Shown in pieces: positions 1-13,355 of a stretch of DNA of 13,355 bases (position 1 is its first letter; every line of letters starts with the position of its first letter). A program made the position numbers and the translations under genes. The notes under the pieces were generated by a model, which saw only the letters and a program-made list of their open reading frames with translations, was not told where the DNA came from and did no database searches. This stretch comes from a virus, in the UHGV virus genome UHGV-1987395, one strand, 5' to 3'.

Positions 1-1
1 A

Positions 2-346
2 GATGAGCACGGTTATCCGATTCTGACAAGTGATGAGATGAACGCCAAATACAAAGGGATTCAGGCAACATTTAAGGATCGGAAGAGCATTAAACTCTCT
101 GAATTGCGAGATGCATTTTACGGGCCGGAGGTGATGGATAAAATTAAAGGCACCGTTGAGGGTAGAATCTGGAAAGAAGATGATTATTGGCATTTAACAG
201 AACAGGCCCTTAAGGTGGCTCAACATGTAGCTAAAAGAGGTAAAACAATTATCATCGATTATATTAGTCATGGCTATGATGCCCCGAAAGAAAGATTGTG
301 GAACAACTGCAAGCTTGTAAAAGGCGAATTAACCATTACAAAATAA
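2..346 (+). CDS. hypothetical protein, 5'-truncated at window edge
   Basis: Frame is open from position 2 to the TAA at 344-346; the first in-window ATG is at 38. No family recognised. Confidence 0.4.
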   Translation, partial: DEHGYPILTSDEMNAKYKGIQATFKDRKSIKLSELRDAFYGPEVMDKIKGTVEGRIWKEDDYWHLTEQALKVAQHVAKRGKTIIIDYISHGYDAPKERLWNNCKLVKGELTITK

Positions 347-386
347 ACATTCTTATTTTTTTACAGTATTCTAAAGGAAATTTAAA

Positions 387-533
387 ATGTATGGCGATTT
401 TGATTATTACCTGGAAAAGGAAAAATATTTTGAAGATGAACTATCACAACATTTTTCATATTGGGAAGAATATTGTGGTTGGTTAGCTGAAGATCCAGCA
501 GATGAAGAAAATGATTCTGACATCCCTTATTAA
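387..533 (+). CDS. small acidic hypothetical protein (48 aa)
   Basis: ATG at 387 preceded by AGGAAA 6 nt upstream; translation MYGDFDYYLEKEKYFEDELSQHFSYWEEYCGWLAEDPADEENDSDIPY is very D/E-rich. Below the 60-aa cut-off of the ORF track; preferred over the overlapping 298..486 ORF, which has no RBS. Confidence 0.35.
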   Translation: MYGDFDYYLEKEKYFEDELSQHFSYWEEYCGWLAEDPADEENDSDIPY

Positions 534-631
534 TTAATATCCCCTGTTATCCCCAAACAAACTAAATAAATAAACTAAGCACTAGAACTAGATTGATTGC
601 CCTGATCTTTTAAACGTTCGGAGAATTAATC

Positions 632-1117
632 ATGTTCAAATCTGATCTTTCTGATTCCCAATTTGAAAAACTGGTAGCACTGCAGAAATATCTCCCCAGT
701 GATGATCAACCAACACGACAGGCTAAACACTTATTAGTCGAGGGCTTTACCCCTGAATTCGTGGCGGAATATACAGGCGTTAAACTTGAGAAAGTCCAAA
801 AACTATATAATGAGTCCTGGAATCCACGGTGTCGAGTTCCCCTCAGTGTCTACAACGAAATAGATAGAGATAGAAATGTCTTCGAAGATCGCCGCCGCAA
901 ATCTCTTTTAATGTGGAATTGTGGGATGAATATTGAAGAGATAGCAAAAGAATTAAAAGTAACCTGCTTTCATGTCTGGGGCTTGTTGAGTGAAATCCTG
1001 CCACGTAAGGAGCTTAATCAACGTTTGCCTAAGCCCGGTAGTCGTGCTTATCGCGAATTTATATTCATCTACCGCCGCCATAGCAATAAAGTCCGGAAAG
1101 CAATGCAGCGCAAATAG
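632..1117 (+). CDS. putative HTH transcriptional activator (Mor/C-like or sigma region-4-like)
   Basis: GGAG 8 nt upstream of ATG; segment RRKSLLMWNCGMNIEEIAKELKVTCFHVWGLLSEI resembles, from memory, the C-terminal HTH of Mu Mor/C-family activators; basic C-terminus. Confidence 0.4.
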   Translation: MFKSDLSDSQFEKLVALQKYLPSDDQPTRQAKHLLVEGFTPEFVAEYTGVKLEKVQKLYNESWNPRCRVPLSVYNEIDRDRNVFEDRRRKSLLMWNCGMNIEEIAKELKVTCFHVWGLLSEILPRKELNQRLPKPGSRAYREFIFIYRRHSNKVRKAMQRK

Positions 1118-1205
1118 CTTATAGCCTTCACATATGCCGCAAGTTATTGATTCTGCCGTCCGGTAAATATGCCGGATGGCTCATATAAATTTTAAGGAAT
1201 TCCAA

Positions 1206-1649
1206 ATGTCTCAAATCGCTAAATTATTATCCCAGGTTATCAAAGCTATCGACGCTGAAGATTCAAAAGTTCGCCAGGATCTTTTAGATGGCAAGTTTAC
1301 CAACACCCTGGCATTTACCCGTGACAAAGAGCACTTCTTAAAACACAGACACCACGCTTTTGCTGAATGCAAGTCCGCTAATGGTGATGTTTTCTATGTC
1401 GATTTGGTGGTTATGGCATGTAGGCTGTGGATGATTCAGGACCTTATGCGCCAACACGGTGATGATCCTCTTATCAGCATGTGGAACAGCGCCCAGGATG
1501 GCTTTGTGATTGCTGCCTTATCCAAATCAATGATTGAGGCAGAAGGGGCAAGCCTTCAGAACATGGCAGATCTCTTTGAAATAAGCGTAGGAATGATGCA
1601 GACCATGCTCCAAGCTGTCAAACCTCTCAAACTGGTTAATCTTGATTAA
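1206..1649 (+). CDS. hypothetical protein
   Basis: ORF 1176..1649 in the track; ATG at 1206 has AAGGA 8 nt upstream, whereas ATG at 1176 has no clear SD. No family recognised. Confidence 0.45.
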   Translation: MSQIAKLLSQVIKAIDAEDSKVRQDLLDGKFTNTLAFTRDKEHFLKHRHHAFAECKSANGDVFYVDLVVMACRLWMIQDLMRQHGDDPLISMWNSAQDGFVIAALSKSMIEAEGASLQNMADLFEISVGMMQTMLQAVKPLKLVNLD

Positions 1650-1703
1650 GATATTGATAAATAAGCACTCCCCATTTTTTTGGGGGTGCATCAATGAGAG
1701 GAT

Positions 1704-2093
1704 ATGCCTATGAATATTGAAGAAATGATAGTTGAATTCGAAGAGGGTGATTTCCTGGAAGAAGGGGAGTTTAAATACTCCCGTTTTAAACAGGCGTTAT
1801 TTAGCAGCGATGATAAACCCCACGTTAGTGATCTTAATGATGATGATTTATGTCGCCTGGTGTGCACCCGCTTATATGAAGATGGAAAGTATACAGGCCA
1901 AAACTTTCCAAATCTCTATTTCAAAGCACAAACATTTGAGGAAGGGCAAAGAGTGAAAAACCTGGTCGATCAAATGCTGTCAGCCGGATATTTGCATAAA
2001 GAATTATTAAATCCTAAAGCTGAAAGCAAGCGCCATTATATTTTTGTGTGGTCTGTGGGGGATAAGTGCCCACTGAAGCGTAAAGGTAAATGA
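1704..2093 (+). CDS. hypothetical acidic protein; possible tail assembly chaperone
   Basis: GAGAGGA SD upstream of ATG; acidic N-terminus; lies two genes upstream of the tape measure gene, the usual position of chaperones. Call is positional only. Confidence 0.4.
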   Translation: MPMNIEEMIVEFEEGDFLEEGEFKYSRFKQALFSSDDKPHVSDLNDDDLCRLVCTRLYEDGKYTGQNFPNLYFKAQTFEEGQRVKNLVDQMLSAGYLHKELLNPKAESKRHYIFVWSVGDKCPLKRKGK

Positions 2094-2094
2094 T

Positions 2095-2280
2095 ATGAAT
2101 ACCTACGAAAAGATTTATCAAAAATTAAAAAGTGATAACAATGCTCCCGTCATCAAGGGCGGGGCTTCTTCCTCTGGTGACCTCTCAATCGAAGAGCTTG
2201 CGGAGAAATATAATATTGATAAAGAGGCCCTGAAAAGGGCTATTTCATTATCAAAATCTTTAAGACAGGGCGAGGTGTAA
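2095..2280 (+). CDS. hypothetical small protein (61 aa)
   Basis: ATG 1 nt after the stop of the upstream ORF (TGAtATG), suggesting translational coupling; ends 3 nt before the tape measure start. Confidence 0.35.
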   Translation: MNTYEKIYQKLKSDNNAPVIKGGASSSGDLSIEELAEKYNIDKEALKRAISLSKSLRQGEV

Positions 2281-2283
2281 GAG

Positions 2284-4404
2284 ATGGCAATGAAGGAAGT
2301 AGCCAAGCTAACAAACGTTATTTACTGGGATTCTGATAAATCCTCCTGGCGAAAAGAAGTTAAACGGCTTGAGGATTATAAAAAATCCTGGAAGAAAGCT
2401 ACCGACGATATAGCTAAAGCGGATTTTAAATCGAATCAGGCTGTGCTCAGAACACAAAGAACACGCGCTAAGGTGGAAGAGCAGATTGCCAGAGCTCAGA
2501 GGAAACAACAGGAAGCACAGAAGAAACAACGTGCTCAGGCTGTCAGCCGTCTGACCGGGGGCAATAATCCGGAGCTCTCCTCTATGCGCAAGTTCTATCA
2601 GCAGCAAGCCAGAGAGGCCGCCAGACAACAAAAACTGTTAGATCGTAGTGTTGGAGATGTTCAGCACAGAAAAGCACGTGTAGGGGCCAACAGTGCACGA
2701 ATCAGCAGTATGTTTGATGGCTCCCTGGTTGCTCAGTTCCAAAGCAGAATCCAGAGAGTTAATGCTGATTATGCTAAAGGGGCTATCAACCTGCAGACCT
2801 ATAATCAGAGGATGGCCCGACTCAGATCTGAAATGAAGATGGCAACAGCTGAAGCCGGAAAATTCCAGAGCAGACTAGATAAACTGGCATCAGGTGCCAG
2901 CAAGGTGCATGACAACCTGGGCAAAATCAACTCCACGCTGGGCAAGATAGCCATTGGCCTTACTGCCGCTGGCTGGGGTGTTCAGCGTGCTGTTAGTGGT
3001 GCTATGGGTAGCCTTGCAGATCGCAACAGTGCCTACTTCGGTTTGATGGCACAGAACAAGGATGATAAAGCCAAGACTGATCAGCAGATGGCTTTTATCA
3101 AGAACACAGCCTACACCTATGGGATGGATGAGCGGGAGATGCAAGGGGGCTACATGCGCTTTGCTGCAGCTACCCCCACCATGAAGGAATCTGATAAGCA
3201 GGCTCTCTTTGAGGCTATGGCTATTAAAGGCCGCTCAGTGGGTGCTACTGGCGAGCAACAGAACAGGGCGCTTGTTGCGGTCCAACAAATGGCTTCAAAG
3301 GGAAAAGTTATGGCGGAAGAGCTGCGGGGCCAACTGTCAGAAGCCTTTGCAGGCTCACAACAGGACTTCCAACAGGCCGCTATTGATGCCGGAATCATCA
3401 AAAATACCCAGGAATTCGATAAAGCCCTTAAAGATGGCAAAATCACCCTGGACAAACTTCTTCCCTCTCTGGTGAAAATCTGGGGTGCAGCAAAAGAAAC
3501 TAAAGCTTTTGCTGAATCCATGAAACAGCCAGAAGTAGCAATGCAGCGCATGAAAAACAGCTTTAACGAGCTGGCGATTCAGTTTATGGGTGTTGTGGAT
3601 CCTGCAGATGGCGTTATTAGCTTATCTGAATCTCTAATCTCCATCTTCGAAGACCTCACCACTGATATGGACGGCAGCGGGAGCGCGGCAAAACAGTTTG
3701 GTGAGGCAGTCGGTGCTGCCATGCGGGAGATCATGTATTGGGTAGGCTTCGCTAAGGGATATATTGAGGTCAAGGCTAAAGAGTTCGGCATGACCGGATC
3801 AGAGGTTGGCGAGCTTATCGGGAAACTGGTAGTCGGCTTAGCTGGTCTGAAAGTTATTACCACACTGCTTTCCCCTCTGACCGGATTTGTTTCACTTGTC
3901 ACTCAGCTGATAGCCTTGTTAGGTAAAATCCCTGGTATGAGCAAGCTTCTGGCTTCTGCCTCAGGTGGAACGGCAACAGGAGCAGCGGTCATCAGTGCAG
4001 GATCTAACGCTGAAAGAAGCTTCATTGATGGCAAGACGCAGGAAATGAGTAAGGAGAACTCAAAACAGGGTGCTTTGTTTGAGCTGGGAAGATTTGTCAG
4101 CAATGCTGGCGCACTGTTCACACCTGGCGGCGATACTGGTCCTTTGTTCGATCAGGTCAGAGGCTGGTTTAATAAAGGGCCAACATTGACAGTAGACACT
4201 GGCATCAGACCAACACCGACGGGTGGCATGGCTATCCAGAATGGTGGATATCAACCAGTCCAAGTAAATGTAGCCCCACAAGGTGAGATTTCCGGCAAAT
4301 GGGAGATAACCATCGATGAGGGGGGAATTGCCAGGGTAATTCAGAAGGAAGTCAGCGATCAGTTGGATTGGAAAGCCACACAGGAATCTAACCAGCTTTT
4401 CTAA
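2284..4404 (+). CDS. phage tail tape measure protein
   Basis: 706 aa; N-terminal Q/R/K/A-rich predicted coiled coil; central region (NKDDKAKTDQQMAFIKNTAYTYGMDEREMQGGYMRFAAATPTMKESDKQALFEAMAIKGRSVGATGEQQNRALVAVQQMASKG...) resembles the conserved tape-measure core domain; Gly-rich hydrophobic segment near the C-terminus. Confidence 0.7.
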   Translation: MAMKEVAKLTNVIYWDSDKSSWRKEVKRLEDYKKSWKKATDDIAKADFKSNQAVLRTQRTRAKVEEQIARAQRKQQEAQKKQRAQAVSRLTGGNNPELSSMRKFYQQQAREAARQQKLLDRSVGDVQHRKARVGANSARISSMFDGSLVAQFQSRIQRVNADYAKGAINLQTYNQRMARLRSEMKMATAEAGKFQSRLDKLASGASKVHDNLGKINSTLGKIAIGLTAAGWGVQRAVSGAMGSLADRNSAYFGLMAQNKDDKAKTDQQMAFIKNTAYTYGMDEREMQGGYMRFAAATPTMKESDKQALFEAMAIKGRSVGATGEQQNRALVAVQQMASKGKVMAEELRGQLSEAFAGSQQDFQQAAIDAGIIKNTQEFDKALKDGKITLDKLLPSLVKIWGAAKETKAFAESMKQPEVAMQRMKNSFNELAIQFMGVVDPADGVISLSESLISIFEDLTTDMDGSGSAAKQFGEAVGAAMREIMYWVGFAKGYIEVKAKEFGMTGSEVGELIGKLVVGLAGLKVITTLLSPLTGFVSLVTQLIALLGKIPGMSKLLASASGGTATGAAVISAGSNAERSFIDGKTQEMSKENSKQGALFELGRFVSNAGALFTPGGDTGPLFDQVRGWFNKGPTLTVDTGIRPTPTGGMAIQNGGYQPVQVNVAPQGEISGKWEITIDEGGIARVIQKEVSDQLDWKATQESNQLF

Positions 4405-4504
4405 TGTCCACTCTGTGGATTTGAGTTCTACTCAAACCTGCATAGCAGGCACTGATATTGTGATCAAAATCAATAAGTTAGCCTGACCGGGTAAACTCCA
4501 GGCA

Positions 4505-4537
4505 AGAAAAAAGCCCCTAAGTGTTAACAAAGGGGCT
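4505..4537 (-). terminator. candidate intrinsic terminator, minus strand
   Basis: 7-bp stem AGCCCCT (4512-4518) / AGGGGCT (4531-4537) with a 12-nt loop, followed on the minus strand by TTTTTT (plus A-run 4505-4511). Confidence 0.45.
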
Positions 4538-4957
4538 CTTCTCCGGTATCCTTTTGATGCGGGGCGAACCTGCTAACAAAAATCAACCTCTCGCGAGACT
4601 AATGTTAGCAGGTTGCCGGAAGGTAAGTCAACTCCGGTCTATAAACCTTAAAGCGACTATAAAATCGCCCCGCCAATTGTGATGATCCGACCTTTGAGGC
4701 GGGTCCGGTGCCCAGGGGGGTGCAGTGATGCACAAACCAGGCAACGATAAACAGGCTAACAGTGATAGCGGCGCTCAATCAGCGCACTAAATCCTAACCA
4801 GTCCGGGAAAGAGGCTGGCTCTATCGACCGCTCATGCACGGGACAATGCATACCTGATAAAGGATTCTCACAAGGGACCAATCGCGAGAAAAGAAGAGGA
4901 AAGGGGCTGATTTGTGGTGTATCACTACGGCCTCAAAAGACCTTCTATTGTCTTTTT

Positions 4958-5416
4958 TCAACCTCTCCCCACATTTGACCAGTATTTGATTGCACCGATC
5001 AAATCATCATAGTGGCGCATTGCATCATTGAAGCCTTTATAGCTTGCCCATTGTGGGGAAACCTTGTTATTGCTGAATTGCCCACTAATCAGGATAGTCT
5101 CCAGAATGTCGGCGTATCGCTTGCCAATTCGCTTTCTGACGGCCTCAGAGCTTCCACCCTTTACGATTGCATTAATCAGGGCTTTTGTGTGTCTCAGGCT
5201 CTCATAGAGCATTGCAGCGTGGGCAGATTCCATAAAGGAGCGCTTAGGCAGATCACCCCACCCCTCAGAGTGGATAGCTGCCAGTGTGGCGTAATTCAGG
5301 CCGCTATAGTGCTTTCCGTCATCCCAGCCAACCGCTACACCTTCCATCTGTGAGAGCTCTTTATGCAGCTTATCCATCATGCGCTTGTCTATGGTGCAAC
5401 GGACTTTCGGACTCAT
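4958..5416 (-). CDS. putative virion morphogenesis / head-tail joining protein
   Basis: 152 aa; ATGA start-stop overlap with the upstream gene; segment LAAIHSEGWGDLPKRSFMESA resembles, from memory, the motif of HK97 gp10-like head-tail joining proteins. Weak. Confidence 0.35.
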   Translation of the reverse strand: MSPKVRCTIDKRMMDKLHKELSQMEGVAVGWDDGKHYSGLNYATLAAIHSEGWGDLPKRSFMESAHAAMLYESLRHTKALINAIVKGGSSEAVRKRIGKRYADILETILISGQFSNNKVSPQWASYKGFNDAMRHYDDLIGAIKYWSNVGRG

Positions 5417-6216
5417 TTGTTGATCTCCGTGATGTCATCGAGCAACATGTTGGCCTTATCAATCATCGTTTCGTGGAACTCATTCGACACAACAGACTTA
5501 TCACCTGCGGCAATCTTTCCCGCTGCCTCTCCCTGTGCATATTCCCCGCGATGCTTAGCCCTGGTAGATTTCGTAGCAGCGTTGCCAGCGTTGCTACCCT
5601 CTTTAGCACTGTTAACAGCACCCTTTTGCTGTGTTTTATTCACCTTCTTACTGTTAGTGAAAACTCCGGCATTTTCGACCATCTTCACCTTGAAGGTGCG
5701 GAATTCTTCAAAGGTGCAATCAATAGTGATGCAGTCACCAGAGGAAGAGCTACGCTTAACTTCACATTTCGTCATGATGAAGTTCTCAAGGAGTCCGGCA
5801 TCTTCACTCACCAGGCTGACCAGCTGGCGCTTGTCTCTCATTTCCATAAGTGCCTGAACAGCGGCAGCAGGGCGCATAGATTCACGGGGATTATCTGGAT
5901 CAGTGTTCCGGTCGATGTAGTTCTCTTTCCGGATGATATAAGGGGAAGAGGTAATAATACCCGTAAAGCTGACAGATTTATCTTTAATGACGGCATGGTC
6001 TGACATGGTGGTGCCATCCTCGACCGCATAGCTCGATTTCTCAACAGGGAACGAATAGCTGACATCAGAGATAGAGTCAAAGAAGATAGCCACATTATCG
6101 GTATAGTTGAAGCCATCCATTATATTTTTGTTTTGTGAATATCCCCCACACATAACAGTGAATGCAGGAGATCTCGACTCAGCTTGTTTTGCAGCTGTCA
6201 GAGCATCACTAGCCAT
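5413..6216 (-). CDS. hypothetical protein, probable virion protein by context
   Basis: ORF 5413..6225 in the track; ATG at 6216 has GGAGG 10 nt upstream, while the ATG at 6225 sits 1 nt from the SD. In the capsid operon; no family recognised. Confidence 0.45.
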   Translation of the reverse strand: MASDALTAAKQAESRSPAFTVMCGGYSQNKNIMDGFNYTDNVAIFFDSISDVSYSFPVEKSSYAVEDGTTMSDHAVIKDKSVSFTGIITSSPYIIRKENYIDRNTDPDNPRESMRPAAAVQALMEMRDKRQLVSLVSEDAGLLENFIMTKCEVKRSSSSGDCITIDCTFEEFRTFKVKMVENAGVFTNSKKVNKTQQKGAVNSAKEGSNAGNAATKSTRAKHRGEYAQGEAAGKIAAGDKSVVSNEFHETMIDKANMLLDDITEINK

Positions 6217-6321
6217 ATTAAACATGCCTCCAAAATGAATCTTTTCGTTGCCCTGCTTAAAATCTGCAGAAAATACAGGGCAGTTATTCGTTAGAATCGC
6301 TTATAGCTCTTCCCGAGAGCG

Positions 6322-6573
6322 TTATTTTGCAAAACGATTATGGGCATTCAGGGCTTTTTTGCGGTCCTGGGCTTGTTTGCGTGCAATAAAATGTTCGAAA
6401 GTCTCGGCCCAGGTGCATTTATTATATTCACGGTATTTATGCATAGCCTGGCGGCTAACGTCATAGCAGGCGGCAAATGTGGAGATACGCAGGAATTCCG
6501 GCAGATCCTCGTCATCGATATGGATAATATCAAAAGGCACGTCGTCACGGTCGCCGTATAAAACAATTTTCAT
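6322..6573 (-). CDS. hypothetical small protein (83 aa)
   Basis: ATG at 6573 with GAGGTG 6 nt upstream; the 6582 start in the track is GTG. Lies just downstream of the post-capsid terminator hairpin. Confidence 0.4.
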   Translation of the reverse strand: MKIVLYGDRDDVPFDIIHIDDEDLPEFLRISTFAACYDVSRQAMHKYREYNKCTWAETFEHFIARKQAQDRKKALNAHNRFAK

Positions 6574-6605
6574 AAAATACACCTCAAAAACTTAAGACGG
6601 GGATA

Positions 6606-6670
6606 ACAAAAAAGGGAAGAGGGAAAGACCTATCCCCGATCTCTCACCTCTTCCCTTTGCTTTTATTTGG
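6606..6670. terminator. bidirectional intrinsic terminator/attenuator between capsid gene and downstream gene
   Basis: 9-bp stem GGGAAGAGG (6614-6622) / CCTCTTCCC (6647-6655); flanked by an A-run 6608-6613 (a T-run on the minus strand) and a T-rich tract 6656-6668 on the plus strand. Confidence 0.55.
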
Positions 6671-6686
6671 CCTTCGAAGAAGGACC

Positions 6687-7730
6687 TTATTTAGCCTTGG
6701 CTTTTGCCAGAGCAGCGGCGGCGGAGTTTTTAACACTCACTTTAACCACAACTTCGGGCATCATGTTCATGAAAGCATAAGAGGATTCAACGAAGATTTC
6801 TCGTTTGCCTCTGGACTCTTCCATATACATGAAAGCTTCACGTGCAGCGCCGTTTGCAAGCTTCAGGTTGCGAGCGCAAGGGCCGAAAAATTGAGTATAA
6901 ACGCCCACCATATCGCCTAACGCATGCGGCTGGAACTGTGGGACCAGATAAGCAGTATTCTCTGGCAGACTATCCATTTGCACCACACGCAGAGCTAAGC
7001 CCGGAATGCGGAAGGTCGGGAAGCCCGGCAGAATATCCTCAGGGAACATCAGACCTTTGTCGGTAATATTCTGATTGCCGAACAACAGCACTTTACGGAG
7101 CAGTTCATCAGTCTGAATAGCGGCGAACACCTCAGCACGGCAGAACAGGGTGAAACCACGCAGAGCGCGAACGACACCACGCTGTTTAACCTTGCTCAGT
7201 GCAACCAGGTCCTGCAGTTGTTTGAGAATATCTTGAGCTAGATCCATTTCAGAGGTGGACTGTTCCACGCCCAGCAGTTCGCACACATTCAGCTCTTTAC
7301 CCTTGGTGAGGATAATTTTGTTCTCAAAGAGAGCAAGCTGGCGTGCTTCTTCGTGGGTCTGGCGTAAGCCTTCGCCCAGTTGAATAACACGACGAGCGGT
7401 TACAGACTCTAAATTCTCTTCGGAATCTTTGCCAGGAACACGAATACCCTGCCAGTCAGAAGGATAAATAGCACTTGATGCGGCAGTGAACGCCATATCA
7501 CCCGTGCCCGTTTCACGCTCATCTGCGGTAATGGTCGCCATCTGTTCACCGTAGCGCGGATACTGACCGAAAGCGGTTTGTTTCACCTGGCGAACTTTGT
7601 CATATTCAAATTTAAAGGTATTGCACAGAGCAGTAGTGTTGAAGATATCCATTGCTGAAATAATCTGGTTATCCAGCGGGATGTCTTTAATCAAGCCACA
7701 CAGATCGCGGACTTCGAATTCTTTTTTCAT
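6687..7730 (-). CDS. phage major capsid protein (E-family-like)
   Basis: 347 aa from ATG 7730 with AAGGAGG 6 nt upstream (the 7736 start in the track is TTG); size and position directly after a decoration-like gene match the usual decoration + E-family capsid pairing; Ala/Lys-rich C-terminal tail. Confidence 0.6.
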   Translation of the reverse strand: MKKEFEVRDLCGLIKDIPLDNQIISAMDIFNTTALCNTFKFEYDKVRQVKQTAFGQYPRYGEQMATITADERETGTGDMAFTAASSAIYPSDWQGIRVPGKDSEENLESVTARRVIQLGEGLRQTHEEARQLALFENKIILTKGKELNVCELLGVEQSTSEMDLAQDILKQLQDLVALSKVKQRGVVRALRGFTLFCRAEVFAAIQTDELLRKVLLFGNQNITDKGLMFPEDILPGFPTFRIPGLALRVVQMDSLPENTAYLVPQFQPHALGDMVGVYTQFFGPCARNLKLANGAAREAFMYMEESRGKREIFVESSYAFMNMMPEVVVKVSVKNSAAAALAKAKAK

Positions 7731-7741
7731 CTCCAACCTCC

Positions 7742-8077
7742 TTATTGTGCAATTCGCAAATCGCCATTGCTGGCAGCGATAACAGCGGCTAAGCCTTCTT
7801 TATCCACGTAGGCCGGATTGATGTAGCAACCTTTGTTGGCAACAACGATAAAAGCATCACCAACCTCAGCACGTTCTACAACCAGCAGCGGAGTTTTACC
7901 GGTGTGCGTTGCTTTAACGAAGGTCTCAACCTCGCCAGCCTCAGTCACCACAACAACAGTGCCAGCCGGAATCTCAGCCTTAACTTTGTTTTTAACTTCA
8001 ACGTCGCGAATACTAAATTGCTCATCTGCGGCGTATGAAATGATGTGTCCGCGTGTGCGGATAGTCATATCTCTCAT
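7742..8077 (-). CDS. putative head decoration protein (DUF2190-like)
   Basis: 111 aa; AGGTGA 4 nt upstream of ATG; Val/Gly/Ala-rich beta-type sequence; sits directly upstream of the capsid gene, with its stop overlapping the capsid SD. Confidence 0.5.
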   Translation of the reverse strand: MRDMTIRTRGHIISYAADEQFSIRDVEVKNKVKAEIPAGTVVVVTEAGEVETFVKATHTGKTPLLVVERAEVGDAFIVVANKGCYINPAYVDKEGLAAVIAASNGDLRIAQ

Positions 8078-8567
8078 TTGATCACCTGCGATTTAAATTA
8101 ACTCCCCTCAAAGAGTTCCGGTATAACCTCTCAAACCACGACAGGCTCGGGCCGAAAAGTTATGCCGGAAATCTAAAGGGAAATTGATACAAGGAGAGGG
8201 AGATAGCCCCGCACCGTAGCCAAGCGGGGGCTATTCCACATGGGGAAACCGACAACAGTCGGATGATAGTTCACAGTATGGTTACGGTTACTAGAGAGCA
8301 CTATCACGAAAGGCACTCCCCCGAATCAGTTCAGGCTGCGGTCACATCAGCGGGGAAATACCTTTCGGGATAGCTACCCACACAGAAAACCCGCAAAAGA
8401 AAACTGTGTGGATAACTAGCCCAATAGGAGAATTAATCGACCACTCAACGATGATCAGGGTAGTGTTATTTATAAGGCGGCACCGCTACCTGGTCGCCTT
8501 TACTTTGGAGGAAAATACGGCAAATCAAGATCTTCTCAAATGATATTGATTCCATACTATACTGTAT

Positions 8568-8596
8568 ATTATATCAGTATTTACTCACATTGTCAA
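8568..8596 (-). promoter_or_regulatory. consensus sigma70 promoter reading leftward toward the capsid operon
   Basis: On the minus strand: TTGACA (plus 8596-8591), 17-nt spacer, TATAAT (plus 8573-8568). Perfect match at both hexamers with optimal spacing. Confidence 0.6.
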
Positions 8597-8750
8597 CACC
8601 TTGATTATATAAATTCTAATAATTAGCGTAGTAACGGTATTTTCAGACCTCTATCAATCCCATCAATACGTCACCCCCACCCTTTAGATGCATACATCCG
8701 ACCTACTTTGTAGGCTTGGCGTACTGCCAAGGTCGCAGCTATGCGACTCC

Positions 8751-8783
8751 TATCTATCACCACTTTATAAAGCTTGATAGATA
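8751..8783. promoter_or_regulatory. dyad-symmetric operator-like site
   Basis: TATCTATCA (8751-8759) and TGATAGATA (8775-8783) are perfect inverted repeats, concentric with an inner perfect palindrome CTTTATAAAG (8763-8772); overlaps a candidate -35 TTGATA at 8774-8779. Confidence 0.4.
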
Positions 8784-8926
8784 TCTTTTGATCAATATCA
8801 ATGTTTTCCAGAGATTTACCCGGCTATAGTTCGAATCAAGGAAGGGGAGCATTGATAGAGACACCCAAAGGGGTGACTGAAAGTCACCTGGCATAGCCAG
8901 TGAAAGCACCCAACCGAACAAACAAA

Positions 8927-8944
8927 TCAACTTCTCGCAAAAGG
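8927..8944 (+). promoter_or_regulatory. conserved 5'-UTR motif, copy 1
   Basis: TCAACTTCTCGCAAAAGG ends 8 nt before ATG 8953; near-identical to the copy at 9446-9464. Confidence 0.4.
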
Positions 8945-8952
8945 TGATAGTT

Positions 8953-9075
8953 ATGGGTATCAAGAACAGTGCCAGCGCATGGCAAAAGGCCAGGTTTCAT
9001 CACCCACACATGGTCAAGGCAATTGAGGTGGTTGGAGTTTTAGCCCTGATGTTAGCTCTGTGTGTGGAGGTGTGA
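8953..9075 (+). CDS. possible small membrane peptide (40 aa)
   Basis: AAGGTGA SD; translation MGIKNSASAWQKARFHHPHMVKAIEVVGVLALMLALCVEV has a C-terminal hydrophobic helix; preceded by the conserved TCAACTTCTCGCAAA motif. Below the track cut-off. Confidence 0.25.
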   Translation: MGIKNSASAWQKARFHHPHMVKAIEVVGVLALMLALCVEV

Positions 9076-9076
9076 G

Positions 9077-9157
9077 ATGGGTAAAGGAGGCAAAGAATTT
9101 TTAATAGGTCTGGCAGTCTTAGATTTTGTATTAATCATCATTGAGCGGAGTTTATGA
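9077..9157 (+). CDS. possible small membrane peptide (26 aa)
   Basis: GGAGGTG SD 4 nt upstream; translation MGKGGKEFLIGLAVLDFVLIIIERSL; its stop overlaps the next start as ATGA. Confidence 0.2.
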   Translation: MGKGGKEFLIGLAVLDFVLIIIERSL

Positions 9158-9414
9158 CGGGAACTAAAGATATTAAGAGACTGAGGGAAGAGCTGATAGC
9201 TGAAATTAAAGCTAAGGCAAAGCAAATGGAGATAGCCGCACAAATGGATGTAGCGGAACAGATGTACAAGATGGTTGAGGAGGGAACGCCACGACAGGTT
9301 ATAGCAAAAACCTTCGGTGTGGGGATCGCCACCGTGCACAGAAGGCTGAAAGCCTATGCCGACTACCACAATATCGAGAGAAAGGAGGATGGGAGATTTA
9401 AGAAGAATAAATAG
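9154..9414 (+). CDS. small DNA-binding protein with resolvase/invertase-type HTH
   Basis: 86 aa; charged helical N-terminus; C-terminal GTPRQVIAKTFGVGIATVHRRLK resembles, from memory, the Hin/Gin C-terminal HTH (GHPRQQLAIIFGIGVSTLYRY); no recombinase catalytic domain. Confidence 0.5.
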   Translation: MTGTKDIKRLREELIAEIKAKAKQMEIAAQMDVAEQMYKMVEEGTPRQVIAKTFGVGIATVHRRLKAYADYHNIERKEDGRFKKNK

Positions 9415-9445
9415 TGTGAACAGTCCAATAGGTTATTAACTAAAT

Positions 9446-9464
9446 TCAACTTCTCGCAAAGGGG
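9446..9464 (+). promoter_or_regulatory. conserved 5'-UTR motif, copy 2
   Basis: TCAACTTCTCGCAAAGGGG ends 7 nt before ATG 9472; same motif as 8927-8944. Confidence 0.4.
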
Positions 9465-9471
9465 TACCACT

Positions 9472-10059
9472 ATGAACATTAAAACTATCATTGCAGCCAT
9501 CACCATTGCCTTTAGTGCCAACACTGCAGCTATTGATGTTAATTTATTTCAGAAGATGACTTGCGAAGATAAATTAGTTGCCATGGATAAGGGGCTAGAA
9601 GCCACGCATAATGGGGAACAGTTTCATTTCTCCTTGAAGAATCTTATCTTGCCCCTGGATTCTGCCGCACAGGTATATGCAACATTGGGTAAATTTGAGA
9701 AGCCGGAAATTGACCTGCAGGGCGTGAGAGCGAAGATCACCAAAAGAAATGAAAGCATTTGTGATATAGCGGTTACGGCCCTTATGACAGATGATGAAAA
9801 AACGATTATAGCTACATGCAAAGATAGCAACGACAACGAACGATTCTTTAAGATCACCCACAACAGGCCCGTTTCTTTCTACTCTAATGCCACAATGGGC
9901 GCGGGTATGCAGTGGCTGAAGAGAGCTAAAGTAACTGAGGTTAATGCTGATGACGATTTATCCTATGAATACGGTTTTATTTCCAATTATATGGCGTGGC
10001 ACCTGAAAAAATGCGGCATCAATGGTCAGGCATACGACAATGGATTTTGGTTTTTCTAA
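9472..10059 (+). CDS. secreted/periplasmic protein of unknown function
   Basis: N-terminal signal peptide MNIKTIIAAITIAFSANTAA with an AxA-like cleavage site; AGGGG SD; followed by an intrinsic terminator at 10081-10106; ends in aromatic FWFF. Confidence 0.55.
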   Translation: MNIKTIIAAITIAFSANTAAIDVNLFQKMTCEDKLVAMDKGLEATHNGEQFHFSLKNLILPLDSAAQVYATLGKFEKPEIDLQGVRAKITKRNESICDIAVTALMTDDEKTIIATCKDSNDNERFFKITHNRPVSFYSNATMGAGMQWLKRAKVTEVNADDDLSYEYGFISNYMAWHLKKCGINGQAYDNGFWFF

Positions 10060-10080
10060 CCTATTAAGTTAATCCCACCT

Positions 10081-10106
10081 GGGGGCCATCACGGCCCCTT
10101 TTTATT
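10081..10106 (+). terminator. intrinsic terminator after the secreted-protein gene
   Basis: GGGGCC (10082-10087), loop ATCAC, GGCCCC (10093-10098), then TTTTTATTT. Confidence 0.65.
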
Positions 10107-10108
10107 TA

Positions 10109-10164
10109 TCCCCTATTTAACCCCTATTTAATGGGTATTTAATGCCTATTTATTGATTTAATGG
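10109..10164. repeat. five tandem copies of an 11-bp unit (consensus about CCCTATTTAA)
   Basis: TCCCCTATTTAA / CCCCTATTTAA / TGGGTATTTAA / TGCCTATTTAT / TGATTTAATGG in direct succession immediately after the terminator; 11-bp period is about one helical turn. Confidence 0.55.
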
Positions 10165-11566
10165 TTTTGGGCATTGTTGACAGTGTAAGAGAGAGGATGT
10201 AACCCTTTTTTGTAATACTAATAAAATCAATAGCTTAGCTCAATTGGCCTTTTCTCTGTTTTTGTCAAATTTAACATACCCTAAAAAACTGCAAAATCTG
10301 GCTGCAAGATTATCTGCAGCTGGATTTCTTACACCTCATTTTGTGGTATCACCCTGACTAGTTTGTGCATAAAATGAACAGTTTTTAACATTTCCTCTTC
10401 ACCTGGTAACCACACAAAAAGCTAAAAACGAGGCACAGATAATCTTAGAGGCCTGTTTTCTTGTTATCACTCTAGAAACGTCGTAGAGATGATTTTAATG
10501 AAAGATGACCTACCCTATTACACCCCTATTTTTTGTTATCACAATTGCATCCTGTGCGGTGTATGGCTATGTGCTGAAAGCGGTCTTATGTGTGGGTGTC
10601 AGAAATATCCATTAGCGGTATTAATACCCGTCGGAGATTCGTCTGAGGTGCCAGGCAGGCGCTCCCCCACCTCCCTTTTTTCTTCTAACAATTCTCAAAT
10701 ATCACACCACTGCCGACCACGTTACTACTCTGTTAATTCTTAAGCTTTGCTGTATGTTGTGCACATTATTTATTCAGGTGGCTGTACGTAAATTCTGTGC
10801 CCACTGATCATGATTTTTAAATCAGATTTTGTAGTTCGCTTTATTAGTGTAGATAAGATCTATTATGTTAAATGCAATTTTCCCAACCCTTCAAATCAAT
10901 GACTTACATGTAAGTATGCACTAACACCCCACACAGCACATTAGACGTATAGATGGCTATATCCCACATTTTTGATTGTTTTGTAGTCATTCCCCTGATC
11001 ATTTAACCAGTATAGTTTGTTCTCTGTAGACCACAAAATCGGAATTTACATCTGATTAACATAATCTGTTAGCATGATCACTATTACCCACACAACAATA
11101 ACCCCATGCAAGCCTCTTTAGGCAATTTATCGGCGTGTTGGTGTGAACAGTCTTTCATGTTCTTTATGAATTCATGACTGCAAGGAATGTATTCATTGTC
11201 CTGTGTGGGGGAAGGATGGACTGCCCCAGGGGCCATAGTTATGACACCCGGTCAACATAACTGTCGATAAAATCAACGGGTGTTGGTATGCATATTTCCC
11301 ACACATGAGAGAAAATCAAAGCAAAGAGAGAGGAGAGAGGTTTGCTAGTCAAAATAGGTCAATTGACGGCTAATACAGAGTAAAAAATCAGATGCAATCA
11401 CTCCCCCACCTGTTGGGATTTCCTACAACCCCTTTCAGTCATACTCAGGCACCACACCCCGGTAAATATTACCGCACTAACCTGTAAAGAATTTTCACAC
11501 CTGTGTGTTTATACAGTCATACTCTCCTGTTTTGCAGTCATTGCACCCATGATACACAGCCCCTAA

Positions 11567-11676
11567 CCTGTCAAAATATTTTACTACTTAGCCACTATAG
11601 CTATGCATACCTGTAAAATATTTTTACTACTACCTGTCAAAATACTTTACTACTACCTGTAAAAATATTTGACACT
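11567..11676. repeat. iteron-like 22-bp direct repeats (four copies, plus a degenerate copy at 11481-11500)
   Basis: CCTGTCAAAATATTTTACTACT (11567-11588), CCTGTAAAATATTTTTACTACT (11610-11631), CCTGTCAAAATACTTTACTACT (11633-11654), CCTGTAAAAATATTTGACACT (11656-11676); the last three are spaced 23 bp start to start. Confidence 0.6.
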
Positions 11677-11789
11677 AATAGATAAAGTAATAGACCACAC
11701 AAGATCCCCCCTAACCCCCCAGGGGGAATGGGGAGGGATCAGAGAGTGGGGAAGGTTTTCTAAGGGAAAAGCTTAACCCACAAATGAAA

Positions 11790-11818
11790 GCCTAAAGAGC
11801 ATTAGCGACTCTTTAGGC
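11790..11818. repeat. perfect 10-bp inverted repeat (hairpin or operator)
   Basis: GCCTAAAGAG (11790-11799), 9-nt spacer, CTCTTTAGGC (11809-11818); the half-site CTCTTTAGGCAAT recurs at 11114-11126. Confidence 0.5.
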
Positions 11819-12258
11819 AATATGTGTGTGGGTCACTCTGTGACTTTAGCTATACAGCTAAACCGACTACGTCGGCCTGTGTGTGGGGGTGACAATGTAT
11901 TCCATACATGACACGTCACCCAATTGTGTGTGGTCCGGCGAATGCGTCAGCATGAGGCCCACATGTGGACCGCTGCCGAAAGCTTGCCAGCGCCGGAAGG
12001 AGGCAGCAAAGAGTCTCCCGCGCGGGTGCACGCACACACATACAAAGGATACACTCATAAATCGAAAATAAGCCACCTAAATGGCCTTCTGGCTGCATTA
12101 ACTAGTGTGAGTAGTGCAATTGCATTACCTGACCTCTAAATCGCGTTAGAATCGATTTTAGAGCGCTTAAGGCAAAAAGTGCCCTCCCTTGTGGGCTTGC
12201 TTGTGTCTGCTGTGCAGGCTATGGCACCTATAGCACACCTAAATGATAATAATTCTCA

Positions 12259-12277
12259 TTGACAATTGGTTGACAAT
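12259..12277. promoter_or_regulatory. tandem TTGACAAT boxes (candidate operator or overlapping -35 elements)
   Basis: TTGACAAT at 12259-12266 and 12270-12277, 11 bp apart; a third copy at 12449-12456 forms the -35 of the downstream promoter. Confidence 0.4.
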
Positions 12278-12448
12278 GTGATAAGATTATAAATAGGGGG
12301 AGAAACAGATCCGGAGGTCAATGTGGAAATTACTGATGCAATAGCGATCATCAACCTGGCTGTACTGTGGTGCGGTGTTGCCTACATAGCCGGAGTAACT
12401 GCAATCGACAATCTTGAAGAAAAAATGATAGATAAATACAAAAAGATT

Positions 12449-12477
12449 GTTGACAATTTGACGAATGTCTGATAAAA
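12449..12477 (+). promoter_or_regulatory. sigma70-like promoter upstream of the 71-aa gene
   Basis: TTGACA (12449-12454), 17-nt spacer, TAAAAT (12472-12477). Confidence 0.5.
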
Positions 12478-12605
12478 TATAAAGCATAGGGTAATTCTCA
12501 TCATAGTGAATTTCCTTTAGTAGACTGGCGGGGGCTTGTCTTAAGTTCCCGTTTCTTTTTAATCATATATCGCACAGGTTAGTGAGCTAACAGGAGGCTT
12601 ATACT

Positions 12606-12821
12606 ATGGCTAAAACCGGACCGATCAGCCAGTTGGTAAACTGGACTACTGACGAAATCGTCGAGAACGTACTTAAGGGGAACTTCCGCAAAACTTCCGT
12701 TTATGCATTCATTCGTAAACATAAAGGAGAATATCCACACATTGAAGAAGCAATTTTAAAACTAAATTGCATTCGCCTTGAGCGGGAACTGGCTAAATAC
12801 ACCAATAACATTAATAAATAA
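12606..12821 (+). CDS. hypothetical small protein (71 aa), possible DNA-binding regulator
   Basis: AGGAGG 8 nt upstream of ATG; lies about 130 nt downstream of a consensus-like promoter; no family recognised. Confidence 0.45.
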   Translation: MAKTGPISQLVNWTTDEIVENVLKGNFRKTSVYAFIRKHKGEYPHIEEAILKLNCIRLERELAKYTNNINK

Positions 12822-12835
12822 TTATGGGGGAATTA

Positions 12836-13355
12836 TGGCAAGTAATTACGGGGAAAATTTTACTCCCCTTTTTAAACGTTTCATCAAATACATTTTTAAA
12901 AATCCGATTGCAAAAACTACAACCAATAAAGAAAGATTTCACTTAAACTTGTTGGAAATGACAATTTACGGTGAGATGGCAAGTTTTAATGCTGCAGGTT
13001 GTGAAATATTTATCTCTGAACAGAGATTAGCAGACGATTATGATGTTTCAAGACCGACAGTTATTAACTCGATTAAATCTCTAGAAAATGCCGGGCTTAT
13101 TTCAATAGTTAAAAGTAAAGGCAAATCTAATCATTACAAACTGCTAATTACCCCTGATCAGCTTGGCAAGATGTGTGATGAGCAGGGTATTAAAACCTCC
13201 GACAGTGTGGGATCTAGTAAAGAGGCCCCCGATAATCAACAGGAAGCCCCAAAACAAGCCACACAGCAAGCTAAAAAGGCCGAGGTGGTGCAATTGCCTA
13301 CCCAACCTAAGAACGAGCGCAGAGAGCGCTTTAGAGACGCTGGCAAACGTGAGAA
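12836..13355 (+). CDS. winged-HTH DNA-binding protein, putative replication initiator or regulator (3'-truncated)
   Basis: Open from ATG 12836 to the window end; segment ISEQRLADDYDVSRPTVINSIKSLENAGLISIVKSKGKSNHYKLL is a classic winged-HTH; followed by a low-complexity Q/K/A/E-rich linker. Confidence 0.5.

What the first reader, a model, noticed from the sequence alone, without database searches (positions are those of the whole stretch)
8078..8600. Perfect consensus sigma70 promoter with a 480-nt structured, ORF-free leader ahead of the capsid genes
TTGACA-17-TATAAT on the minus strand (8596-8568) sits about 480 nt upstream of the first capsid-operon start codon (8077). The leader has no ORF of 60 aa or more on either strand and no convincing smaller ORF with an SD. 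It contains a 10-bp hairpin (ATAGCCCCGC 8203-8212 / GCGGGGGCTAT 8225-8235), an 8-bp stem CCACACAG/CTGTGTGG (8378-8411) and a perfect DnaA-box sequence (TGTGGATAA, 8407-8415). A strong promoter feeding a long structured leader before late genes recalls lambda PR'/Q-type antitermination, or a cis-regulatory RNA or sRNA.
Basis: partly seen in the sequence, partly recalled or inferred. Interest (0 to 1): 0.55.

Follow-up and report, generated by a model that had tools for sequence, protein, structure and literature searches.

The report
Conserved structured leader RNA gating capsid genes
A near-perfect bacterial promoter on a small E. coli plasmid that looks like a phage satellite drives a roughly 360-base folded non-coding RNA of no known family, which ends in a terminator-type hairpin just before the capsid genes and probably acts as their on/off gate.

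Summary
TTGACA-17-TATAAT (8596-8568, minus) is the only 12/12 promoter match in the window. About 0.004 such matches are expected by chance. It also has a TG extended -10. No ORF of 50 aa or more lies in 8082-8756.

The window is a complete ~13.3 kb E. coli plasmid carrying capsid and tail genes distantly related to rV5-like (Vequintavirinae) phages. It is probably an undescribed plasmid-type phage satellite.

Three sequence clades of this plasmid keep the promoter and a homologous leader. The leader is a real structured RNA:
- Folding z-scores are -5 to -6.
- Folding is stronger on the promoter's strand.
- A 22-bp helix has 8 compensatory pairs.

The 10-bp hairpin is the core of a terminator-type hairpin. 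In clade B it is a canonical intrinsic terminator (15 bp plus a T-run). In the window it is followed by a C-rich, G-poor tract instead.

No Rfam family matches. No Q gene or valid ops site is present, and the DnaA box is not conserved.

My best reading (0.45) is a constitutively transcribed, terminated leader RNA that gates the capsid operon, with read-through needing a factor, probably during helper infection. A trans-acting role is not excluded.

The parts
8602..8626 (-). A/T-rich UP-element-like region just upstream of the -35 hexamer (CTAATTATTAGAATTTATATAATCA). TTATTAGAA is kept in clade B.
   Evidence: Sequence; alignments A1 and A2. UP-element function is inferred.
8568..8596 (-). Sigma-70 consensus promoter TTGACA-17-TATAAT with TG extended -10 (8576-8575).
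   Evidence: 12/12, unique in the window. Chance expectation is 0.004. Conserved in clades A and C, and as TTGACA-17-TAAAAT in clade B.
8199..8562 (-). Conserved structured non-coding RNA of about 360 nt, from the inferred start site near 8562 to the end of the terminator-type hairpin.
   Evidence: Folding z = -5.0 on the minus strand against -2.6 on the plus strand. Homologous in three clades. Covariation. No Rfam match. The start site is inferred from the promoter, not mapped.
8523..8551 (-). 5' hairpin (stem AAUCA/UGAUU). Its loop varies in length and sequence within clade A. Clade B has a different 5' hairpin.
   Evidence: read directly from the sequences.
8474..8500 (-). Hairpin M2: stem GGCGAC/GCCGCC around the loop CAGGUAGCGGU (8492-8482), which is invariant across clades.
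   Evidence: one G-C to C-G compensatory pair in clade B. The loop is invariant in 20/20 sequences.
8458..8473 (-). Nearly invariant linker AUAAAUAACACUACCC. Its CUACCC could pair with GGGUAG at 8379-8374 as an alternative fold.
   Evidence: Alignment A3. RNAalifold helix at columns 146-151/251-256, with one-sided wobble changes only.
8367..8422 (-). Hairpin M3. The apical loop UUUUGCGG(G/A)UUU is conserved.
   Evidence: The hairpin is retained in clade B with a different stem sequence, and its exact register is ambiguous. The DnaA box is not conserved.
8300..8374 (-). Helix M4: 22 bp (CUAUCCCGAAAGGUAUUUCCCC / GGGGGAGUGCCUUUCGUGAUAG) with a variable apical part.
   Evidence: 8 of 22 pairs change on both sides and 97.5% of cells are paired. 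For the whole structure, 0/500 shuffles reach the observed values and slid controls give 37-50% paired.
8249..8262 (-). Small hairpin CCGAC-UGUU-GUCGG. It is absent from clade B.
   Evidence: G-C to A-U compensatory change in 6 clade A sequences.
8199..8237 (-). It is -20.6 kcal/mol and has no canonical U-tract in the window.
   Evidence: (97.9% paired, 2 compensatory pairs). The clade B homologue is a 15-bp stem followed by a run of T, listed as terminator-like. It is not listed as terminator-like in the window.
8167..8198 (-). C-rich, G-poor pyrimidine tract after the hairpin. By my hand count the first 36 nt hold 13 C and 2 G. It could be a Rho-loading or anti-Shine-Dalgarno tract.
   Evidence: Read from the sequence. 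Function is inferred.
8104..8180 (-). Distal long imperfect hairpin, not conserved in sequence. Other plasmids carry apical insertions here: 71 nt in L009/L022/L024 and a larger one in clade C.
   Evidence: Clade B has a different hairpin at this position that sequesters its Shine-Dalgarno sequence and AUG.
8075..8087 (-). Shine-Dalgarno sequence AGGUGA and the AUG (8077) of the first capsid-operon gene (111 aa), followed by the major capsid protein gene.
   Evidence: No other sigma-70-like promoter on the minus strand lies between 8512 and 8078.
12259..12553 (+). Context: two paralogous promoters (12259-12287 and 12450-12478) share GTTGACAATnTGA with the capsid promoter. The second is followed by a terminator-like hairpin (12527-12553) before the next ORF.
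   Evidence: (inverted repeats I1 and I2). The same promoter-then-terminator arrangement is found in clade B (5710-5682 and 5606-5589 on L033).

Best explanation
The feature is a transcription unit for a conserved, highly structured leader RNA that gates the capsid operon of a small plasmid-borne phage satellite.

Proposed mechanism:
1. A very strong sigma-70 promoter fires with host RNA polymerase. It has a consensus -35 and -10, a 17-bp spacer, a TG extended -10 and an A/T-rich upstream region.
2. The first ~360 nt fold into at least five helices with invariant loops.
3. The RNA ends at a terminator-type hairpin. This is a canonical intrinsic terminator in clade B. In the window it is a strong hairpin followed by a C-rich, G-poor tract.
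4. Most transcripts therefore stop as an abundant non-coding RNA.
5. The 111-aa protein, the major capsid protein and the downstream tail genes are made only when polymerase reads through.
6. Read-through most likely needs a trans-acting factor that recognises the conserved leader structure. That factor is probably supplied or triggered by infection with an rV5-like helper phage.
7. A second structural layer may control translation. In clade B a hairpin sequesters the Shine-Dalgarno sequence, and the window has a distal hairpin at the same position.

Shown: the promoter sequence and its conservation, the lack of coding capacity, the conserved RNA structure on this strand, the terminator hairpin, and the absence of another sigma-70 promoter before the genes.

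Inferred: the start site, actual termination, the existence and source of an antitermination factor, and the helper identity.
For: - Promoter: 12/12, unique in the window and improbable by chance. It is conserved in all three clades.
- Conservation: parts of the leader are as conserved as, or more conserved than, the capsid coding sequence. Diversity within clades A+C is 0.019-0.026 at 8351-8400 and 8451-8500, with 74-84% identity to clade B.
- Structure: folding z-scores are -5.95, -5.06 and -5.30 in the three clades.
- Strand: z is -5.0 on the promoter strand against -2.6 on the other. Invariant G-U pairs would be C-A mismatches on the other strand.
- Covariation: 12 pairs change on both sides, 96.8% of cells are paired, 0/500 shuffles reach the observed score, and slid controls give 37-50%. 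On 20 sequences the result is the same, with 12 pairs, 93.3% paired and 0/500.
- Terminator hairpin: conserved with compensatory changes. In clade B it is a 15-bp stem followed by a T-run.
- No other sigma-70-like promoter lies between this RNA and the start codon.
- The same promoter-then-terminator design recurs at the element's other operon in both clades.
- A terminator-like hairpin also follows the capsid gene in both clades, which would fit processive read-through.
Against: - No transcript data exist. The start site, the 3' end and termination efficiency are all unmeasured.
- In the window's own clade the hairpin lacks a canonical U-tract and the terminator scan did not call it. Termination there may be weak or Rho-dependent.
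- No antiterminator protein is recognisable in the element.
- No alternative antiterminator pairing is conserved across all clades.
- The replication-initiator-like gene also lies downstream of a promoter-terminator pair. The plasmid persists without a helper, so such terminators must leak. The design may simply tune expression down rather than act as a helper-dependent switch.
- Covariation rests on only three clades, so the independent changes are few.
Confidence: 0.45

Rival explanations
1. It is a stand-alone, abundant trans-acting non-coding RNA. It might bind or sequester a host or helper protein, or base-pair with a target. Its position before the capsid genes would be incidental, or only secondarily regulatory. 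A known precedent is the short terminated PR' transcript of Stx phages, which doubles as an sRNA (from my own knowledge, not checked here).
For: - It is a discrete unit: very strong promoter, ~360-nt structured RNA and terminator, which is canonical in clade B.
- Invariant loops (CAGGUAGCGGU, UUUUGCGG) and an invariant linker look like ligand or partner sites.
- Its complexity exceeds that of typical attenuators.
Against: - No complementarity or similarity above chance was found to a Vequintavirus genome. That was a similarity search plus motif scans, not a dedicated RNA-RNA interaction search.
- No complementarity above chance was found to the putative short RNA from the 12450 promoter.
- The RNA is always co-oriented with and directly upstream of the capsid operon, which has no other sigma-70 promoter.
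- This reading does not exclude the cis model.
Confidence: 0.2
2. It is a long 5' UTR that is always read through. Its helices would stabilise the mRNA or control translation of the first gene, for example by Shine-Dalgarno sequestration. On/off control would come from a repressor acting at the promoter.
For: - The window's hairpin has no U-tract.
- The divergent 86-aa helix-turn-helix gene and operator-like inverted repeats (ATCTATCA...TGATAGAT, 8740-8800) lie just upstream.
- The three paralogous promoters share GTTGACAATnTGA.
- In clade B a hairpin sequesters the Shine-Dalgarno sequence.
Against: - A canonical strong terminator sits inside the homologous leader in clade B.
- The most conserved parts are far from the ribosome-binding site, while the part next to it is the least conserved and tolerates insertions.
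Confidence: 0.15
3. It is a self-acting antitermination RNA of the HK022 put type. The nascent leader would bind the transcribing polymerase and make it resistant to the downstream terminators without any protein factor.
For: - A conserved structured RNA sits close to the promoter, ahead of terminators both in the leader and after the capsid gene.
- No antiterminator protein was found.
Against: - The RNA is about five times longer than put elements (from my own knowledge).
- I could not compare it with put sequences.
- A conserved strong terminator immediately after a constitutive self-antiterminator would have little purpose unless the promoter is repressed.
Confidence: 0.1
4. It is a DNA-level element such as a replication origin with a DnaA box, a primer RNA as in ColE1, or a packaging site. 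Alternatively it is a decayed protein-coding gene.
For: - A perfect DnaA-box sequence lies at 8407-8415.
- The satellite lacks a recognisable terminase, so it must carry a packaging signal somewhere.
- Some segments are invariant at the DNA level.
Against: - The DnaA box is not conserved and its changes follow RNA pairing.
- G-U pairs and the strand asymmetry of folding point to RNA, not DNA.
- The plasmid has its own iterons (four 23-bp copies at 11566-11677) and an O-like replication initiator.
- No plus-strand (antisense) sigma-70-like promoter was listed within 8078-8600.
- The DNA segments shared with the helper-like phage lie elsewhere.
- No conserved ORF or frame exists in any clade.
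Confidence: 0.05

Closest known systems
Lambda-type late control: PR' promoter, short 6S leader RNA, tR' terminator and Q antiterminator
   Same: A strong constitutive promoter is followed by a terminated non-coding leader directly upstream of late structural genes. Further terminators lie inside the operon.
   Different: - No Q-family gene is present.
- No demonstrable Q-binding or pause element is present.
- The leader is about twice as long as the lambda 6S leader (about 194 nt, from my own knowledge) and has conserved complex structure.
- The host element is a plasmid satellite.
- The window's hairpin lacks a canonical U-tract.
HK022 put RNAs (cis-acting, factor-independent antitermination RNA)
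   Same: A structured nascent RNA lies upstream of terminators and could act on the polymerase that made it.
   Different: put elements are about 70 nt with two stem-loops (from my own knowledge). This RNA is about 360 nt with at least five helices.
Satellite P4 immunity: constitutive PLE promoter whose leader yields the CI RNA (Rfam C4 family) and causes premature termination
   Same: A satellite uses a constitutive promoter plus a leader-derived RNA and premature termination to hold an operon silent.
   Different: No Rfam family, C4 included, matched in any clade. I saw no seqA/seqC-type complementary repeats in the repeat list. Here the gated genes are structural rather than replication genes.
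RfaH-dependent operons with long leaders carrying an ops element (GGCGGTAGnnTG)
   Same: A long 5' leader is present. The invariant loop contains GGTAGCG, which is 7 contiguous bases of ops.
   Different: Only 7 of 12 positions match, and the C at ops position 3 is an A here. I recall this C as needed for the ops hairpin. The motif sits in an RNA hairpin loop flanked by a covarying stem, which points to an RNA-level role.

Membership tests
Lambda PR'/Q-type antitermination module | A Q-family antiterminator gene encoded next to the late promoter | tested here: not met
   Pfam and PHROGs scans of the element's ORFs give no Q-type hit. The upstream neighbours are a 40-43 aa ORF and an 86-aa HTH_7 protein, both divergent. 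A helper-encoded factor cannot be excluded.
Lambda PR'/Q-type antitermination module | A Q-binding element in the promoter and a sigma-70-dependent pause element (-10-like) in the initially transcribed region | tested here: inconclusive
   A -10-like hexamer follows the -10 in each clade: TATAGT in the window, TATACC or TATACA in variants, TATAAT in clade B. Its position and sequence differ. No Q-binding element can be defined without a Q protein.
Lambda PR'/Q-type antitermination module | A terminator downstream of the promoter that yields a short leader RNA ahead of late genes | tested here: inconclusive
   Clade B has a canonical intrinsic terminator. The window has the homologous hairpin at -20.6 kcal/mol but no U-tract, and the scan does not call it. 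No 3'-end data exist.
Any Rfam 15 family (riboswitches, C4/CI RNA, 6S, group I introns, leaders and others) | A covariance-model match at or near the gathering score | tested here: not met
   There are no gathering-level hits in the window. At E up to 10 on 7900-8800, and E up to 1 on the clade B and C loci, only chance-level miRNA-like hairpin matches appear.
RfaH ops element | 12-nt GGCGGTAGnnTG on the non-template strand of the leader | tested here: not met
   The leader has CCAGGTAGCGGTG. GGTAGCG is shared, positions 1-3 differ, and the final TG is displaced by one base.
Canonical intrinsic (Rho-independent) terminator | A G+C-rich hairpin immediately followed by a U-rich tract | tested here: not met
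   For the window, the hairpin at 8237-8199 is followed by CUCUCCUUGUAU, and no terminator is called there. The feature is met in clade B at L010 2901-2935.
ColE1-type primer RNA II replicon | An antisense RNA I promoter and an origin at the 3' end of the transcript, with no plasmid initiator protein | tested here: not met
   No plus-strand promoter-like site lies in 8078-8600. The plasmid has 23-bp iterons and an O-like replication initiator.
Functional DnaA box / origin element | Conservation of TTATNCACA among relatives | tested here: not met
   The box is TTATCCACA in most of clade A, TTATCCATA in clade C, TTATCCATG in L022/L024 and ATATCTACC in clade B.
HK022 put-type antitermination RNA | A two-stem-loop RNA that renders polymerase terminator-resistant in cis without protein factors | not testable with these tools
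   No put model or reference sequence was available. This needs in vitro transcription.

The most novel reading that the evidence does not exclude
The ~360-nt RNA would be a new class of helper-sensing regulatory RNA. It could be an antitermination platform, or a dual cis and trans non-coding RNA. It belongs to an undescribed family of plasmid-borne satellites that carry their own capsid and tape-measure genes and parasitise virulent rV5-like (Vequintavirinae) phages. Its invariant loops would be the docking site for a helper or host factor that switches satellite capsid production on only during infection.
Probability: 0.25. Interest if true: 0.8.

Novelty: new variant of a known kind. Interest (0 to 1): 0.6.

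Why it matters
If the reading is right, this is the control point that decides when a plasmid-type satellite makes its own capsids. It would be built from an RNA with no known relatives.

It would give a compact, testable model of how an extrachromosomal satellite stays silent in healthy cells yet responds to a virulent helper. Plasmid satellites were described as largely unknown in a 2025 review (PMC12282955).

The promoter-leader-terminator cassette is also a self-contained part that could be tested directly as an infection-responsive switch.

Even if it only tunes expression, it adds a new structured RNA family supported by covariation.

Tried and rejected
- Rfam at gathering and permissive thresholds on all three clades found nothing real. 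ARAGORN found no tRNA or tmRNA.
- DNA searches of the phage collection with the region found no match in near or distant mode.
- My first collection pattern (AGGTAGCGGTG-N8-ATAAATAAC) was mis-specified. The true spacing is N7, so it does not match even the window (seen).
- Valid scans were 4 clade A metagenome contigs, no viral contig; corrected pattern, no viral contig; checked on the window.
- Leader-peptide idea: short ORFs start near +8 in each variant, but frame, length and sequence differ and clade C has an in-frame stop. Rejected.
- sRNA-leader pairing: the putative short RNA from the 12450 promoter shows no complementarity above shuffled controls in either clade.
- Conserved antiterminator pairing with the terminator's 5' strand: a candidate exists in clades A and C but not in B. 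Not supported.
- Complementarity or similarity of the leader's invariant motifs to Vequintavirus MaxTheCat: only chance-level hits. One is an 11/12 match to the phage tRNA-Tyr D-arm, where about 0.6 such hits are expected.
- boxA-like UGCUCUCUA after helix M4: not conserved in clade B. Dropped.
- ops element: fails at key positions.
- Searches for more distant relatives through the 111-aa protein and the capsid protein found only E. coli plasmids of the same two protein clades.

Full report
**1. The observation**

On the minus strand the window reads TTGACA (8596-8591), a 17-nt spacer ending in TGA, then TATAAT (8573-8568). The consensus scan lists it as the only 12/12 match among 26 promoter-like sites, with a TG extended -10. 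From the window's base composition I expect 0.0037 perfect matches with a 17-nt spacer on both strands, and 0.0002 with the TG as well.

The first downstream start codon with a Shine-Dalgarno sequence is at 8077. It belongs to a 111-aa ORF that is followed by a major capsid protein gene. No ORF of 50 aa or more lies in 8082-8756 on either strand.

**2. What the window is**

The region has no match in the phage collection. It matches, at 91-99% identity, small circular E. coli plasmids of 13.2-13.7 kb. These occur in 7 of 5,426 complete E. coli genomes, and in one of them as a trimer. The window is colinear with the whole of pE275a_13, so it is a complete element.

The element carries the following genes:
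- a capsid protein gene
- a Dit-like tail tube initiator
- a neck or tail-completion protein
- a 706-aa tape-measure protein
- an O-like replication initiator
- small helix-turn-helix proteins

I recognised no terminase, portal, sheath or tube gene. Its best phage relatives are consistently rV5-like Vequintavirinae:
- tube initiator, about 50% identity
- tape measure, about 27%
- capsid protein, 25% over the full length, E = 3e-13

Short non-coding DNA segments are also shared with Vequintavirus MaxTheCat. I found no paper describing such a plasmid. A 2025 review states that plasmid satellites are largely unknown (PMC12282955). So the context is probably a plasmid-borne satellite of virulent rV5-like phages. 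That is an inference.

**3. Relatives of the leader**

Protein look-ups recovered two further clades:
- Clade B: the first gene is 132 aa and 66% identical, and the capsid protein is 81% identical.
- Clade C: L020 and L021.

All three clades keep TTGACA-17-TA(T/A)AAT with TG, an A/T-rich upstream region and a homologous non-coding leader. None has a gene in this interval.

Within clades A and C the segments 8451-8500 and 8351-8400 are among the least variable of the whole 2.9-kb neighbourhood, with diversity 0.026 and 0.019. They are 84% and 74% identical to clade B, which equals or exceeds the capsid gene.

Four metagenome contigs of 13.6-13.9 kb carry the same clade A arrangement. No viral contig does. 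My first pattern scans were mis-specified by one base and say nothing.

**4. It is a structured RNA on the promoter's strand**

The leaders of clades A, B and C fold far better than shuffled sequences, with z = -5.95, -5.06 and -5.30. The core 8190-8562 gives z = -5.0 on the minus strand and -2.6 on the plus strand.

RNAalifold and pair counting show the following helices:
- M2 (8500-8474): a hairpin with an invariant 11-nt loop, CAGGUAGCGGU, and one G-C to C-G swap.
- M4 (8374-8300): a 22-bp helix in which 8 pairs change on both sides and 97.5% of cells are paired.
- A small hairpin (8262-8249): shows a G-C to A-U swap inside clade A.
- A terminal hairpin (8237-8199): has two compensatory pairs.

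For the M3+M4 structure as a whole, 96.8% of cells pair and 12 pairs change on both sides. No shuffle out of 500 reaches the covariation score, and sliding the partners by 1-3 columns drops pairing to 37-50%. Several invariant G-U pairs would be C-A mismatches on the other strand.

There are caveats. There are only three clades. The structure was partly derived from these same sequences. The register of M3 in clade B is ambiguous.

**5. The DnaA box**

TTATCCACA lies in the 5' strand of M3. It becomes TTATCCATA, TTATCCATG and ATATCTACC in other clades. The C-to-U and A-to-G changes in clade C and L022 keep wobble pairs in the RNA stem. The plasmid has its own iterons and initiator elsewhere. 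I therefore treat the box as a by-product of the stem.

**6. The terminal hairpin**

In clade B the homologous hairpin is a 15-bp stem followed by a run of T and is called terminator-like. It sits about 70 nt before the start codon.

In the window and in clade C the hairpin is equally stable (-20.6 and -20.0 kcal/mol). It is followed by CUCUCCUUGUAUCAAUUUCCCUUUAG instead. By my hand count, the 36 nt after the hairpin core contain 13 C and 2 G. The scan does not call it a terminator. Termination there would have to be weak or Rho-dependent.

No other sigma-70-like promoter lies between this RNA and the genes.

Downstream, clades A and C have a long imperfect hairpin (about 8193-8092). It is not conserved in sequence and has accepted apical insertions: 71 nt in some clade A plasmids and a larger one in clade C. 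Clade B has a different hairpin at that position that buries its Shine-Dalgarno sequence and AUG.

**7. Wider design of the element**

Two paralogues of the promoter (12259-12287 and 12450-12478, plus strand) share GTTGACAATnTGA with it. The second is followed by a terminator-like hairpin before the next ORF. Clade B has the same arrangement. A terminator-like hairpin also follows the capsid gene in both clades.

Strong promoters followed by terminators therefore appear to be the element's general style. This supports attenuation or antitermination control. It also warns that such terminators must leak, because the replication-initiator-like gene lies behind one.

**8. Mechanism**

My best reading (0.45) is that host polymerase transcribes the leader constitutively or near-constitutively. 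Most transcripts end at the hairpin as a stable ~360-nt RNA. Capsid-operon expression needs read-through promoted by a factor that recognises the conserved structure, probably during helper infection.

Rivals and their weights:
- A trans-acting non-coding RNA (0.2). This is not exclusive of the cis model.
- A read-through 5' UTR that controls stability or translation, under a promoter-level repressor (0.15).
- A put-like self-antiterminating RNA (0.1).
- A DNA-level element or a gene remnant (0.05).

I found no Q-type protein. I found no valid ops element, no antiterminator pairing conserved in all clades and no partner RNA.

**9. Comparison with known systems, and novelty**

The layout works like lambda PR'/tR', or like P4 leader-based immunity. 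It fails the membership tests I could run for Q modules, Rfam families, ops, ColE1 primers and DnaA-box origins. The put type could not be tested.

The RNA has no known family and sits in an apparently undescribed kind of satellite. I rate it a new variant of a known kind (terminated regulatory leader), with interest 0.6. All functional steps beyond sequence, conservation and structure remain to be shown by transcript mapping and reporter assays.

Noticed in passing
window 1-13355 (whole element): The window is a complete ~13.3 kb circular E. coli plasmid, present in 7 of 5,426 complete genomes. It has its own capsid protein, Dit-like tube initiator, neck protein and 706-aa tape measure, but no recognisable terminase, portal, sheath or tube gene. 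Its best relatives are rV5-like Vequintavirinae (50%, 27% and 25% identity). It looks like an undescribed plasmid-type satellite of virulent phages, and I found no paper on it.
   Followed up: partly
window 11963-12027; L033 6225-6287 and 6432-6480: Non-coding DNA here is 83-92% identical to an intergenic region of Vequintavirus MaxTheCat (131609-131794). It is conserved in both satellite clades and lies in the satellite's ORF-poor zone. It is a candidate shared cis-acting site, such as a packaging, replication or regulatory site.
   Followed up: partly
window 8855-8906 (+); L020 about 1395-1445; MaxTheCat 90900-90951: A ~50-nt cassette of three consecutive mini-hairpins (CACCC-AAA-GGGTG, GTGAC-TGAAA-GTCAC, CTGGC-ATA-GCCAG). 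Among the sequences checked it is present in the window, L001 and L003 but not in other clade A plasmids. It also occurs in the helper-like phage's 2.5-kb ORF-free region. In clade C it sits, in the opposite orientation relative to the capsid operon, inside the distal leader hairpin. It behaves like a small mobile or recombining module.
   Followed up: partly
L009, L022, L024 and L039: insertion in the homologue of window ~8140: A different 71-nt insertion sits at the apex of the distal leader hairpin. It is also built of three 4-5 bp hairpins with triloops (GTGCT-TCC-AGCAC, TAGCT-TAC-AGCTA, TGCC-TGT-GGCA).
   Followed up: no
window 12259-12287, 12450-12478 and 12527-12553 (+): Two paralogues of the capsid promoter share GTTGACAATnTGA with it. 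The second is followed about 50 nt later by a terminator-like hairpin before the next ORF, which could give a ~75-nt RNA. The same layout occurs in clade B (L033 5710-5682 and 5606-5589).
   Followed up: partly
window 10100-12250: A ~2.1 kb ORF-poor region. It holds four 23-bp iterons (11566-11677), 11-bp repeats (10100-10140) and a 24-nt segment (10680-10703) that matches 23/24 to the helper-like phage's ORF-free region.
   Followed up: no
window 8640-8830 (between the divergent promoters): Operator-like repeats: ATCTATCA...TGATAGAT inverted repeats, and TTGATA/TGATAG motifs reaching to about -60 of the capsid promoter. A 60-70 nt indel lies here between plasmids. These are likely binding sites for the divergent 86-aa HTH_7 protein.
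   Followed up: no
window 8924-8944, 9443-9463 and 4580-4600 (+): Three copies of AAATCAAC(T/C)TCTCGC(A/G)A. Two of them lie directly upstream of plus-strand start codons (the 40-43 aa ORF near 8953 and the 195-aa ORF at 9472). They may be a shared translation-initiation or regulatory element.
   Followed up: no
window 6621-6637 (-); L033 11368-11389 (+): A terminator-like hairpin sits directly after the capsid protein gene and before the downstream tail genes, at the same position in both clades.
   Followed up: no
L002 (NZ_CP043822.1, 39.6 kb): One record is an imperfect head-to-tail trimer of the element, and one copy has truncated genes. It may be an assembly artefact or a real multimer.
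   Followed up: no
window 12836-13355 joined to 1-346 (+): The O-like replication initiator gene (306 aa in pE275a_13) runs across the ends of the window. The 102-aa ORF at 38-346 is probably only its C-terminal part.
   Followed up: partly
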